Of a DNA stretch of 2,241 nt, positions 1 through 1,466 are shown piece by piece. Below the pieces are notes generated by a model. It saw only the letters and a program-made list of their open reading frames with translations, was not told the origin of the DNA and did no database searches. This DNA comes from Escherichia coli (GTDB lineage: Bacteria; Pseudomonadota; Gammaproteobacteria; Enterobacterales; Enterobacteriaceae). How positions within the stretch are numbered: position 1 is the first letter of the stretch; every line of letters begins with the position of its first letter. The stretch lies in the NCBI RefSeq assembly GCF_003334815.1, contig NZ_QOWO01000087.1; one strand, 5' to 3'. Both the position numbers and the translations under genes were made by a program.

Positions 1-183
1 GTCCTCAAAATTCCAGGAGCGCCAGATCAACGTGCCATCCTGACGGACAACCAGGCGAAAATGCGTTCCCTGATCATCCTCGATAAAGACATTCCGGTAC
101 TGTGTAACAACGGTTTCAGCACACTCGCGGGTGAATGCCCCATCGGGTAGTTCATGAATCATTTCATCGGATTTGTTCATCAT
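1..183 (-). CDS. Partial CDS (N-terminal ~60 codons; 3' end lies beyond position 1) of a hypothetical plasmid leading-region protein immediately downstream of ssb
   Basis: Minus-strand frame is open from ATG at 180 (alternative ATG at 183) to the window edge with no stop: [60 protein letters not shown]... GGAG (complement of 188-191) lies 7 nt upstream of the ATG at 180. Amino-acid composition is ordinary, not GC-artefact-like. Same strand as ssb, 53 bp downstream. Not in the supplied ORF track, presumably because no stop is in the window. Family not recognised. Confidence 0.55.
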
Positions 184-197
184 CGTTCTCCGGTAAT

Positions 198-216
198 GCC
201 CCACACATGGTGGGGC
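198..216. other. Intercistronic hairpin (7-bp stem 198-204/210-216, 5-nt loop) between the ssb stop and the downstream ORF start
   Basis: GCCCCAC-acatg-GTGGGGC is perfectly self-complementary by direct base pairing. On the minus-strand RNA it is not followed by a U-tract, so it is not a canonical intrinsic terminator. Confidence 0.6.
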
Positions 217-236
217 TGTCAGAAAAATCAGCCAGA

Positions 237-764
237 TCAGAATGGCGCATCATCGTCGTAGCCATAAGGAGGTTCTGGCTGTTGTTGAGGCTGAGGCTCT
301 GGCTGCGCGGCCTTACGTCCACGGCCTTTCGTTTTCGCGCCACCTTTTTTCGTCGCGTCAGCACTCTGTGGCTGCCCATTCTGCTGAGGCTTCGGTTGCG
401 CCTGAGCGTTCTGCTGTGGTGCACGTCCCAGCATCTGCACGGTGCCCGTGGTCTTAACAAGAATTTCAGTGACGTAACGGGTGATACCGTTATCTTCCCA
501 GCTACGGGTGCGAAGCTGACCTTCGATGTAGACCTGCGCACCCTTGCGCAGATATTCACCTGCCACTTCCGCGAGCTTGCCGAACAGCACCACGCGGTGC
601 CATTCCGTCTGCTCCCGCATCTCCCCCGTCTGTTTGTCACGCCAGCTTTCTGATGTGGCCACCTGCAGGTTTGCCACTGCGCCCCCGTTGGGGATGTAAC
701 GGACTTCCGGATCATTGCCCAGACGCCCGACGAGGATGACCTTGTTGATACCACGTGCACTCAT
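237..764 (-). CDS. ssb: Single-stranded DNA-binding protein, plasmid-type SSB (175 aa)
   Basis: The translation matches the E. coli SSB OB-fold block nearly residue for residue as I recall it ([81 protein letters not shown]), followed by a Gln/Pro/Gly-rich disordered linker and the acidic C-terminal tip DDDAPF (E. coli: DDDIPF). AGGAGG (complement of 770-775) sits 5 nt upstream of the ATG at 764. Stop TGA is the complement of 237-239. Confidence 0.95.
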
Positions 765-833: not shown

Positions 834-851
834 GAGGAGCGAAAGCTCCTC
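834..851. other. Hairpin with 7-bp stem and GAAA tetraloop (GAGGAGC-gaaa-GCTCCTC)
   Basis: Perfect complementarity 834-840/845-851 with loop 841-844. On the plus strand the loop is a GNRA-type sequence. Confidence 0.6.
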
Positions 852-856
852 CTGCC

Positions 857-890
857 GTCCACTTCACAGGGGTTTCTCCCCGCAGTGGAC
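857..890. other. Imperfect two-part hairpin (outer stem 857-863/884-890, inner stem GGGG 869-872 / CCCC 878-881, loop tttct)
   Basis: GTCCACT...AGTGGAC outer arms are perfectly complementary (7 bp); the inner GGGG/CCCC stem is separated from it by an internal loop. Confidence 0.5.
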
Positions 891-922
891 CTTTCCGATG
901 GGGGCCCGTTTACCGCCTCACG

Positions 923-934
923 GGACAGCTGTCC
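923..934. repeat. 12-bp perfect palindrome GGACAGCTGTCC (contains CAGCTG)
   Basis: The sequence equals its own reverse complement. A second CAGCTG-centred palindrome, GCAGCTGC, occurs at 1270-1277. Confidence 0.7.
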
Positions 935-939
935 GGGGG

Positions 940-987
940 CGGACGCAAAATTTTTAGCCGGGTTCATGGCTAAAAATTTTGTGGCCG
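940..987. repeat. Perfect 14-bp AT-rich inverted repeat (946-959 / 968-981) with 8-nt spacer, extendable imperfectly to 940-987
   Basis: CAAAATTTTTAGCC-gggttcat-GGCTAAAAATTTTG: every one of 14 positions pairs. Flanking 940-945/982-987 add four Watson-Crick pairs with one G-T and one mismatch. It is the only AT-rich perfect hairpin in an otherwise GC-rich region. Confidence 0.85.
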
Positions 988-1092
988 GTGCATCTCACCC
1001 TGGACAGATGGAACGGGAGGGGGTTACGTCTGCCCCCCGGAAAGTCCACAGCGGGAAACAGGCCGCAGGGGTGGCGGCAGGAGGGAAGACTG

Positions 1093-1134: not shown

Positions 1135-1150
1135 CAGGGAGCGCAGGTCA

Positions 1151-1185
1151 CGGCGCGACAGGGGCGGCGCGACCGGAACGGTCGC
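1151..1185. repeat. Direct repeat CGGCGCGAC x2 (1151-1159, 1165-1173); the second copy overlaps a hairpin GCGACC-ggaac-GGTCGC (1169-1185)
   Basis: Exact 9-bp direct repeat with 5-bp spacer, read directly. The hairpin has a 6-bp perfect stem. Confidence 0.6.
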
Positions 1186-1358
1186 TGCAAGCCGGGTTTT
1201 CACGCATCGGACCGTAGCGGCAGCCCGAAACCGCGCCAGCGGGTTCGGCGGAGACTGGCGGGTGCGCCAGCAGCTGCCTGTCGGAGTCGGGCCTGACGAC
1301 CGGATGCCGCCAGGCAGCCGGGAGCCGAAGTGGGCGCAATAAAAGACAGCCAGAAACG

Positions 1359-1371
1359 GTGACAGTGTCAC
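1359..1371. repeat. 13-bp palindrome GTGACA-g-TGTCAC; candidate operator for a dimeric DNA-binding protein
   Basis: Six-bp arms are perfectly complementary around a central G. It lies in the only AT-richer patch (about 1331-1410) of the intergenic region. The operator role is inference. Confidence 0.45.
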
Positions 1372-1373
1372 GG

Positions 1374-1382
1374 AATATCACA
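1374..1382 (-). promoter_or_regulatory. Possible extended -10 element (TGtGATATT on the minus strand) for conventional transcription toward ssb
   Basis: Minus strand reads TG-t-GATATT. The hexamer keeps the A at -11 and T at -7 but has G at -12, and there is no good -35. A start site about 7 nt downstream would fall inside the 1359-1371 palindrome. Weak, by-eye call. Confidence 0.2.
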
Positions 1383-1434
1383 CCTGTTCCCTGCATACAG
1401 CCATACACTACCTTCTGACCGGAAAGCCGGGCCG

Positions 1435-1453
1435 GCAGCGCCGCAGGCGCTGC
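1435..1453. other. Hairpin with 8-bp GC stem and 3-nt loop (GCAGCGCC-gca-GGCGCTGC)
   Basis: Perfect pairing 1435-1442/1446-1453. Confidence 0.6.
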
Positions 1454-1466
1454 ACCCCGCATTTCC

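What the first reader, a model, noticed from the sequence alone, without database searches (positions are those of the whole stretch)
237..257. SSB C-terminal tip reads DDDAPF rather than the canonical DDDIPF
In E. coli SSB the last residues, especially the terminal Pro-Phe and the preceding Ile, dock into partner proteins of the SSB interactome. Here the Ile is Ala (codon complement of 246-248), with the acidic triplet and Pro-Phe retained. This could tune which host partners the plasmid SSB engages, or simply be a tolerated variant. I cannot tell from memory whether it is typical of plasmid SSBs.
Basis: partly seen in the sequence, partly recalled or inferred. Interest (0 to 1): 0.3.

Follow-up and report, generated by a model that had tools for sequence, protein, structure and literature searches.

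The report
Plasmid SSB tail variant DDDAPF
The plasmid's single-stranded-DNA-binding protein really does end in DDDAPF instead of DDDIPF, but this ending is carried by thousands of enterobacterial plasmids, so it is a lineage-typical and still untested variant, not an oddity of this sequence.

Summary
The complement of window 237-764 encodes a 175-aa SSB ending YGYDDDAPF, and the Ala codon GCG is the complement of 246-248. The window is 100% identical to the leading region of IncI-gamma/K1 conjugative plasmids. The protein passes the NCBIfam plasmid-SSB model.

DDDAPF is not peculiar to this plasmid:
- The same tail occurs in 123 PLSDB plasmids and in 76 of 5,426 complete E. coli genomes, always on plasmids.
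- A second, much larger plasmid SSB family (Klebsiella/Enterobacter/Salmonella F-like) has Ala at -3 as its consensus. Its tail region is found in about 2,400 plasmids.
- Among 66 diverse SSB representatives ending in PF, -3 is I/V/L in 61 and Ala only in this family.

The tail reached this backbone by recombination. The gene is identical to an IncI1 ssb (SDDIPF) up to nt 476. It then diverges sharply for about 215 bp, into the next gene.

The main reported docking determinants (acidic residues, Pro, terminal Phe) are kept. I found no paper in the searchable library that mentions DDDAPF or an Ile-to-Ala mutant. The most likely reading is a working, tolerated docking tip. Adaptive tuning of partner choice is not excluded. 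Interest is low.

The parts
237..764 (-). ssb, the plasmid single-stranded-DNA-binding protein. It is 175 aa: an OB fold (residues 1 to about 113), a Gln/Pro/Lys-rich linker and an acidic tip.
   Evidence: ORF and translation. NCBIfam NF010292 scores 368.4 bits against a cut-off of 265, full length 1-175/175. Matches solved SSB structures at E = 2e-60, and the stretch carrying the ssDNA-contacting aromatic residues of E. coli SSB (assignment from my own knowledge) is identical. Annotated as WP_001276123.1 in NZ_CP024481.1.
240..257 (-). Codons for the tip D-D-D-A-P-F. The Ala (GCG) is the complement of 246-248. The stop codon TGA is the complement of 237-239.
258..260 (-). Tyr at position -7 (TAC). 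Relatives with the same tail have Phe (TTC), which matches the Phe of E. coli DFDDDIPF.
   Evidence: Only 7 of 123 records reach 99% identity or more with the window over the 60-nt tail.
75..288 (.). Recombination patch. It covers the last 17 codons of ssb, the 56-bp spacer and about the first 105 nt of the DUF905 gene. It is strongly diverged from an IncI1/B/O plasmid that is otherwise identical on both sides.
   Evidence: Window against L002: 0 mismatches in ssb nt 1-476, then 53% identity to the stop codon, 74% in the spacer, 72% in the DUF905 5' part and 100% again from about nt 691.
1..180 (-). 5' part of the DUF905 gene directly downstream of ssb. It starts at 180 and runs off the window.
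   Evidence: Annotation of NZ_CP024481.1 (WP_001042947.1). Its first 35 or so codons lie inside the patch.
845..1090 (+). Long imperfect hairpin in the 770-bp non-coding stretch upstream of ssb. It is a candidate single-stranded-DNA promoter or initiation element (Frpo/ssi-like) that would drive early ssb expression in the recipient.
   Evidence: Fold of 770-1140 as DNA gives -105.6 kcal/mol, z = -7.95, and 0 of 100 shuffles fold as well. The core inverted repeat is 940-959 / 968-987. Assigning it to Frpo/ssi is an inference from position and from PMC9849209. It was not tested.

Best explanation
The feature is the C-terminal docking tip (SSB-Ct) of the SSB encoded in the leading region of an IncI-gamma/K1-type conjugative plasmid.

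Inferred role, from work on F and pED208. The protein is made early in the recipient. As a tetramer it coats the incoming single strand through its OB folds. Its flexible tail offers an acidic, Phe-terminated tip to host genome-maintenance proteins. It helps damp the mating-induced SOS response.

Inferred working of the tip. The terminal Phe side chain and its free carboxylate, the preceding Pro and the three Asp residues make the main contacts, and all are present here. The residue at -3 adds hydrophobic surface at the rim of the pocket in only some complexes. Ala instead of Ile should therefore leave docking intact. At most it should weaken docking modestly and unevenly among partners.

Shown here. 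The Ala is not a private mutation. It belongs to a roughly 215-bp cassette (ssb 3' end, spacer, DUF905 5' end) that was recombined onto an otherwise IncI1-identical ssb. It is typical of sampled IncI-gamma/K1 plasmids. The same tip is the consensus of a separate large plasmid SSB family.

I read it as a long-standing, tolerated plasmid-type form of the SSB tip.
For: Identity and context:
-.

The tip keeps D-D-D, P and F.

Frequency:
- 123 PLSDB plasmids carry this tail: 88 Escherichia, 21 Salmonella, 12 Klebsiella and 2 Shigella, and 120 of them are conjugative.
- 76 of 5,426 complete E. coli genomes carry it, with 79 places on plasmids and 0 on chromosomes.
- 6 of 7 typed examples are IncI-gamma/K1, and all six sampled relatives read DDDAPF.

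Independent second lineage:
- The Klebsiella-type plasmid SSB WP_004182056.1 ends PPMDDDAPF on an unrelated linker. The tail DNA is 46% identical to the window's and uses different Asp, Pro and Phe codons.
- Its tail region is in 2,399 PLSDB plasmids.
- Of 118 cluster representatives of that family, 103 have Ala at -3, 10 have Val, 1 has Ile and 4 have no tip.
- The Ala codon varies synonymously, GCG against GCC, within the family.

Recombination:
-.
- The same tail sits on two different N-terminal backbones.

Literature:
- The determinants named are the Phe side chain and carboxylate, Pro176 and the Asp residues (PMC3159472, PMC10238739).
- Ile175 is poorly ordered in the RecO complex (PMC3152348).
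- Position 6 tolerates Leu and norleucine (PMC10143822).

Further support:
- The tip DDDAPF also ends DnaB, TopA, TopB and RdgC proteins of other phyla. This is consistent with the Ala version being used as a working C-terminal motif, although no function was tested for them.
Against: No binding or genetic data exist for an Ala at -3. No paper in the searchable library contains DDDAPF, or I175A/I176A together with SSB.

Ala is rare outside plasmids. Among 66 diverse SSB representatives ending in PF, -3 is I in 52, V in 5, L in 4, P in 2, M in 2 and A in 1, and that one belongs to this family. Chromosomal SSBs therefore appear to select for a larger hydrophobic residue, and the loss may cost affinity.

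Ile is resolved in the ExoI complex, and Ile to Leu changes ExoI affinity (PMC10143822). The position is therefore not inert.

The long retention of Ala in the Klebsiella-type family could equally reflect positive maintenance.
Confidence: 0.68

Rival explanations
1. Adaptive tuning. Ala at -3 (together with Tyr or Phe at -7) is selected in plasmid SSBs to shift partner choice. One possibility is weaker binding to host nucleases or helicases, or to the replisome, so that a burst of plasmid SSB in the new host does not titrate host partners. Another is better binding to a plasmid-encoded partner such as a primase or PsiB.
For: Ala at -3 is close to absent among diverse non-plasmid SSB representatives. 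It is nevertheless the consensus of one large plasmid family, with synonymous variation at the codon. It also recurs on an unrelated tail in IncI-gamma/K1 plasmids. Ile to Ala needs two base changes, and the Val intermediate is seen in 10 clusters. Klebsiella chromosomal SSB carries DDDIPF (PMC4137731; the alignment shows a DDDIPF tip on the best-matching solved SSB), so host differences in pocket shape are an unlikely explanation. Substitutions at this position do alter ExoI affinity (PMC10143822).
Against: Closely related plasmids with the same backbone, hosts and neighbouring genes carry SDDIPF or DDDIPF tails. The tail arrived with flanking non-coding DNA and part of the next gene, as expected for hitch-hiking in a recombination patch. 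Deleting ssb from F has no significant effect on conjugation efficiency (PMC9849209), so selection on fine tuning may be weak. No partner has been identified.
Confidence: 0.2
2. Relaxed constraint. The plasmid SSB only needs to coat DNA, partner docking is dispensable, and the tip is drifting.
For: Plasmid ssb is dispensable for transfer in the laboratory (PMC9849209). 27 of 120 cluster representatives from the first search have frameshifted, read-through or truncated ends that lack the tip. In the Klebsiella-type family the terminal Phe is Tyr in 23 of 118 representatives.
Against: In intact alleles D-D at -5/-4, Pro at -2 and an aromatic last residue are kept across four unrelated tail sequences, and across 70-100% protein divergence. 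This is the opposite of drift. The changes seen at -3 stay within small hydrophobic residues (A, V, I).
Confidence: 0.07
3. The tail variant alters a signal for export through the conjugative type IV secretion system, not host-partner docking.
For: SSB of the F-like plasmid pED208 is translocated to recipients through the T4SS (PMC8406263). That secretion signals of many T4SS substrates lie at the C-terminus is my own knowledge, not something tested here.
Against: No evidence ties SSB export to its tip. The DDDAPF tip occurs on plasmids with both MPF_I and MPF_F transfer systems.
Confidence: 0.03

Closest known systems
IncI1/B/O plasmid SSB (WP_001276120.1, for example on NZ_CP054413.1; the ColIb-P9/R64 type)
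   Same: The DNA is identical over ssb nt 1-476, and so are the upstream non-coding region and the neighbouring genes (DUF1380, 63-aa ORF, DUF905, psiB). The length is the same, 175 aa.
   Different: The last 17 codons differ: PQPPEGEDYGFSDDIPF against [16 protein letters not shown]. The DNA is 53% identical there. The spacer and the first 35 or so codons of DUF905 are also replaced.
Klebsiella/Enterobacter/Salmonella F-like plasmid SSB (WP_004182056.1, 180 aa)
   Same: It is a plasmid leading-region SSB followed by DUF905 and parB-like genes. Its tip is DDDAPF, with Ala at -3 as the family consensus.
   Different: The OB fold is only 67% identical at the DNA level. The linker is unrelated (…PLPDDFPPM). 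The tail DNA is 46% identical. Some members end in Tyr (DDDAPY).
E. coli chromosomal SSB (tip MDFDDDIPF)
   Same: It has the same OB fold, and the stretch carrying the DNA-contacting aromatic residues is identical. It has a disordered linker and an acidic tip ending Pro-Phe. The interaction mechanism comes from this protein (PMC3159472, PMC3152348, PMC10143822).
   Different: It is essential and chromosomal. It has Ile at -3 and Phe at -7. The window protein scores below the cut-off of the NF006533 (PRK09010) SSB model, 244.6 against 260; I take that model to represent the enterobacterial chromosomal SSB.
F-plasmid SSB (SsbF) and pED208 SSB
   Same: Both are leading-region genes downstream of a single-strand promoter. 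They are produced early in recipients and contribute to suppressing SOS (PMC9849209, PMC8406263).
   Different: The F-type tip is SDDIPF. This rests on my own knowledge for F itself, and it was seen here on L003 and in 46 of 120 cluster representatives. There are no data on tips.

Membership tests
Bacterial homotetrameric SSB (Pfam PF00436, TIGR00621) | N-terminal OB-fold ssDNA-binding domain | tested here: met
   TIGR00621 scores 184 bits against a cut-off of 54. PF00436 is recorded on all close relatives. E = 2e-60 to a solved SSB, and the segment [36 protein letters not shown] is identical apart from one conservative Arg/Lys difference.
Bacterial homotetrameric SSB (Pfam PF00436, TIGR00621) | Low-complexity disordered linker followed by an acidic tip that ends in Pro-Phe with a free carboxylate | tested here: met
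   Residues from about 114 to 166 are rich in Gln, Pro, Lys and Gly. The last six residues are DDDAPF, followed by the stop codon.
Bacterial homotetrameric SSB (Pfam PF00436, TIGR00621) | Tetramer formation, ssDNA binding and partner binding | not testable with these tools
   These need biochemistry.
Enterobacterial plasmid SSB subfamily (NCBIfam NF010292 / PRK13732) | Full-length match above the curated cut-off | tested here: met
   368.4 bits against a cut-off of 265, covering 1-175 of 175.
Enterobacterial plasmid SSB subfamily (NCBIfam NF010292 / PRK13732) | Location in the leading region of a conjugative plasmid, alongside psiB/psiA and antirestriction genes | tested here: met
   In NZ_CP024481.1 the neighbours are ardA, psiA, psiB, DUF905, ssb, DUF1380 and an antirestriction gene. 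The plasmid is typed MOBP/MPF_I and conjugative.
Canonical SSB-Ct hexapeptide D-D-D-I-P-F | Ile (or Leu/Val) at position -3 | tested here: not met
   The residue is Ala (GCG). Among 66 diverse representatives, -3 is I/V/L in 61.
Canonical SSB-Ct hexapeptide D-D-D-I-P-F | Three acidic residues, Pro at -2 and Phe at -1 | tested here: met
   The tip reads D-D-D-x-P-F.
Frpo/ssi-type single-strand promoter upstream of ssb (context only) | A long stem-loop in the transferred strand that rebuilds -35/-10 boxes and recruits RNA polymerase | tested here: inconclusive
   A strong hairpin is present, z = -7.95. The simple sigma-70 scan found no hexamer pair. Activity is not testable here.

The most novel reading that the evidence does not exclude
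Ala at -3 marks a plasmid-specific class of SSB tips (DDDAPF/DDDAPY). This class has been selected, at least twice on unrelated tails, to dock differently from the host's DDDIPF tip. One example would be weaker engagement of host nucleases, helicases or the replisome during the burst of SSB after DNA entry. The plasmid SSB would then protect the incoming strand without competing with host SSB for its partners.
Probability: 0.15. Interest if true: 0.5.

Novelty: already known. Interest (0 to 1): 0.18.

Why it matters
The SSB tip is the hub through which about 20 genome-maintenance proteins are recruited, and it is a proposed antibacterial target. If Ala at -3 changed partner choice, it would be a natural experiment in how a mobile element re-wires that hub while it establishes itself in a new host.

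As things stand, the gene and the protein are already in RefSeq, with identical copies on several plasmids. The variant is frequent. Nothing here shows a functional difference.

The useful outcomes are modest:
- The finding that plasmid ssb tails are exchanged as short recombination cassettes.
- A ready set of natural tips for binding studies: SDDIPF, DDDIPF, DDDAPF, DDDVPF and DDDAPY.

Tried and rejected
- **Literature.** Full-text searches found no paper for 'DDDAPF' and no paper for I175A/I176A together with SSB. 'SSB + Ile175' gave only irrelevant hits. The Lu & Keck ExoI structure paper and Howland et al. 1989 (ColIb-P9 ssb) are not held. The contacts of Ile in the ExoI complex are therefore cited only second-hand, through PMC10143822.
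- **Donor of the tail.** I tested whether the window's tail was copied from the Klebsiella-type gene and rejected this. The tail DNA is 46% identical, the linker is unrelated and the synonymous codons differ. No donor at intermediate identity was found, because every hit to the 60-nt tail is 95% identical or more.
- **Genome-wide scan.** I searched for DDDAPF followed by a stop codon to find chromosomal SSBs with this tip.
- **Cluster sizes.** I did not use cluster sizes from the 90%-identity protein search as counts of DDDAPF. A 9-residue tail difference fits inside a 90% cluster, so members may carry other tips.
- **RNA families and promoters.** The Rfam scan of the window found nothing meaningful. 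The sigma-70 scan of the upstream region found nothing.
- **Structure modelling.** I considered modelling a partner-peptide fusion and dropped it. Such a model would not rank affinities, and I could not obtain partner sequences from the tools without relying on memory.
- **Artefact.** Sequencing error was rejected.

Full report
**1. What is in the window**

The minus strand of window 237-764 is a 175-aa ORF. It has three parts:
- an N-terminal OB fold;
- a Gln/Pro/Lys-rich linker;
- the end …[16 protein letters not shown].

The reverse complement of 237-257 reads GAC GAT GAT GCG CCA TTC TGA, so the Ala codon is the complement of 246-248, as reported.

The protein matches NCBIfam NF010292 (PRK13732, single-stranded DNA-binding protein) over its full length. 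The score is 368 bits against a cut-off of 265. It falls just below the cut-off of the NF006533 (PRK09010) SSB model, 244.6 against 260; I take NF010292 to be the plasmid-type and NF006533 the chromosomal-type model. It aligns to a solved enterobacterial SSB at E = 2e-60. The segment that carries the DNA-contacting aromatic residues is identical, apart from one conservative Arg/Lys difference.

The whole window is 100% identical to five plasmids of E. coli and Salmonella. It is at least 80% covered in 1,488 of the 5,000 best-scoring PLSDB records. In NZ_CP024481.1 (IncI-gamma/K1, MOBP, MPF_I) the gene lies in the leading region. The order is antirestriction gene, DUF1380, 63-aa ORF, about 770 bp of non-coding DNA, ssb, DUF905, then psiB-psiA and ardA.

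**2. How common is DDDAPF?**

*(a) The same tail.* A 60-nt query covering only the tail finds 123 PLSDB records, all at 95% identity or more. They comprise 88 Escherichia, 21 Salmonella, 12 Klebsiella and 2 Shigella, and 120 are conjugative. A 189-nt query gives the same set. It also finds 76 of 5,426 complete E. coli genomes, always on plasmids. Of seven typed examples, six are IncI-gamma/K1 and one is IncFIA/FIB. All six sampled relatives read …PPYGFDDDAPF. The window's Tyr at -7 is a minor sub-variant, because only 7 of the 123 records reach 99% identity or more with the window over the 60-nt tail.

*(b) Close relatives.* Among the 120 best 90%-identity cluster representatives, the tips are SDDIPF in 46, DDDIPF in 29 and DDDAPF in 15. 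The rest are frameshifted, read-through or truncated ends.

*(c) A separate family.* One of the DDDAPF hits was a Klebsiella protein on an unrelated linker. Its gene encodes WP_004182056.1 (180 aa, …PLPDDFPPMDDDAPF). It lies in the same ssb-DUF905-parB arrangement on IncFII/FIB Klebsiella plasmids. Its tail region is present in 2,399 PLSDB plasmids, 1,753 of them at 99% identity or more. Of 118 cluster representatives of that family (70-100% identity), 103 have Ala at -3, 10 have Val, 1 has Ile and 4 lack a tip. The Ala codon is GCG in Klebsiella and Raoultella and GCC in Enterobacter sp. Ag1, while the Asp, Pro and Phe codons also vary.

*(d) Beyond plasmids.* Among 150 representatives at 50% identity, 66 end in PF. 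In these, -3 is I in 52, V in 5, L in 4, P in 2, M in 2 and A in 1, and that single Ala belongs to this very family.

DDDAPF is typical of particular plasmid SSB lineages and rare in SSBs generally.

**3. How this plasmid got the tail**

Against an IncI1/B/O plasmid (L002), ssb is identical for nt 1-476. The 550 bp upstream has a single mismatch. From nt 477 the identity profile is:

| Segment | Identity to L002 |
|---|---|
| ssb nt 471 to the stop codon | 53% |
| 56-bp spacer | 74% |
| first ~105 nt of DUF905 | 72% |
| from about nt 691 | 100% |

This is a recombination patch of about 215 bp (window about 75-288).

The same tail also occurs on a different N-terminal backbone, MAVRG…GKDPE…, in the protein database. 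Some plasmids carry the DUF905 part of the patch without the ssb tail (hits H129 and H130). Plasmid ssb tails therefore behave as exchangeable cassettes.

At least four such cassettes circulate on near-identical OB folds:
- …EGEDYGFSDDIPF
- …SEPAYDFDDDIPF
- …SEPEYNFDDDIPF
- …PEPPYGFDDDAPF

Across all four, Tyr at -9, an aromatic residue at -7, Asp-Asp at -5/-4, Pro at -2 and Phe at -1 are kept.

The Klebsiella-type tail is not the donor. Its DNA is 46% identical to the window's tail.

**4. Mechanism**

What is established for E. coli SSB:
[quoted passage not shown] The upstream Asp residues meet basic surfaces (PMC3159472, PMC10238739).
- Pro176Ser (ssb-113) and changes to the last Phe are severe (PMC3159472, PMC3045619).
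- In the RecO complex only Pro-Phe is well ordered, and Ile175 is poorly ordered (PMC3152348).
- In ExoI the last four residues are resolved. A peptide with Ile to Leu binds ExoI better, and RecO tolerates Leu or norleucine (PMC10143822).

I found no data for Ala at this position.

From these facts I infer that DDDAPF still docks, with at most a modest, partner-dependent loss of hydrophobic contact.

The role of the protein is inferred from F and pED208. It is expressed early from the incoming single strand. It co-localises with host SSB and cooperates with PsiB in limiting SOS. It is dispensable for transfer efficiency in the laboratory (PMC9849209, PMC8406263).

**5. Rivals**

*Adaptive tuning of partner choice* cannot be excluded.
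- For it: Ala is rare outside plasmids. It is stable across a diverged plasmid family. It is present on two unrelated tails.
- Against it: sister plasmids with the same hosts and neighbours carry Ile tips. The tail also arrived together with flanking non-coding DNA.

*Pure decay of the tip* is unlikely, because the other tip positions are strictly kept.

*An artefact* is excluded.

**6. Novelty and score**

The protein is an annotated RefSeq entry with identical copies on several plasmids. The variant is frequent. No functional difference is shown. The tip variant itself appears undiscussed in the searchable literature. This makes it a small, testable gap and not a surprise. Interest is 0.18.

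**7. Side observations**

- *Upstream hairpin.* The non-coding DNA upstream of ssb folds into a long hairpin at about 845-1090, z = -7.95. It sits where Frpo/ssi-type single-strand promoters are described.
- *DDDAPF on other proteins.* Most loci from the DDDAPF-stop scan are not SSBs. They are the C-termini of long proteins. Four representative proteins were identified by NCBIfam: DnaB (Ferruginibacter, Bacteroidota), topoisomerase I (Lysobacter), topoisomerase III (Pandoraea) and RdgC (Paracidovorax). Other Bacteroidota, Xanthomonadales and Burkholderiales hits have similar lengths and C-terminal sequences but were not identified. This is consistent with the Ala-containing tip being used as a C-terminal motif on other DNA-metabolism proteins. 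A targeted search did not find it described.

Noticed in passing
window 845-1090 (core inverted repeat 940-959 / 968-987): A long imperfect hairpin lies in the 770-bp non-coding stretch upstream of ssb. Folded as DNA it gives -105.6 kcal/mol, z = -7.95. It sits where Frpo/ssi-type single-strand promoters lie in F and ColIb-P9. A simple sigma-70 scan found no hexamer pair.
   Followed up: partly
loci L063, L087, L111, L029 (Pandoraea); L016, L018, L094 (Xanthomonadales); L078, L033, L021, L057 and others (Bacteroidota); L053, L071 (Paracidovorax): Non-SSB DNA-metabolism proteins end in the same SSB-like tip DDDAPF, often after a disordered extension. One representative of each kind was identified by NCBIfam: topoisomerase III (L063), topoisomerase I (L016), replicative helicase DnaB (L078) and RdgC (L053); the other listed loci were grouped only by similar length and C-terminal sequence. 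About 600-aa Pseudonocardia proteins of unknown family also carry it. This may be tip mimicry. A targeted literature search did not find it described.
   Followed up: partly
proteins P0275, P0341, P0347, P0353-P0355, P0358, P0363, P0377, P0378 and others: In the Klebsiella/Enterobacter/Salmonella plasmid SSB family, 23 of 118 cluster representatives end in Tyr instead of Phe (DDDAPY, DDVAPY, DDNAPY, EDDAPY, DDDALY). The last Phe is regarded as the key anchor of the tip.
   Followed up: no
proteins P0009-P0011, P0017-P0019, P0027, P0032, P0033, P0036, P0040 and others: 27 of 120 cluster representatives of the E. coli-type plasmid SSB lack the tip, most by a frameshift or read-through near it (for example …YGFSDDTRSDWPD…, 193-229 aa) and one by truncation. 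These are either real inactivated tails or assembly errors.
   Followed up: no
window 1148-1462, minus strand: RefSeq annotates a 104-aa hypothetical protein (WP_001434357.1) inside the GC-rich, structured non-coding region between the 63-aa ORF and ssb. Its Ala/Arg/Pro/Gly-rich sequence looks like translated non-coding DNA.
   Followed up: no
L001 4932-7234 (NZ_CP024481.1), downstream of the window: In this plasmid an IS21-family element (ISEc12, istA/istB) lies between DUF905 and psiB. Relatives have a 1.96-kb ParB/RepB/Spo0J-like gene there.
   Followed up: no
loci L035, L061, L084, L118, L125 (rabbit-gut Clostridia MAGs): SSBs of 161-179 aa end in …SDFE(D/G)VIGDDDAPF. This is a third, unrelated SSB lineage with Ala at -3. 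The Ala codon is GCG or GCA.
   Followed up: partly
proteins P0281, P0369: Two database proteins carry both DUF905 (PF06006) and SSB (PF00436) domains. These are apparent fusions or read-throughs of the adjacent ssb and DUF905 genes.
   Followed up: no
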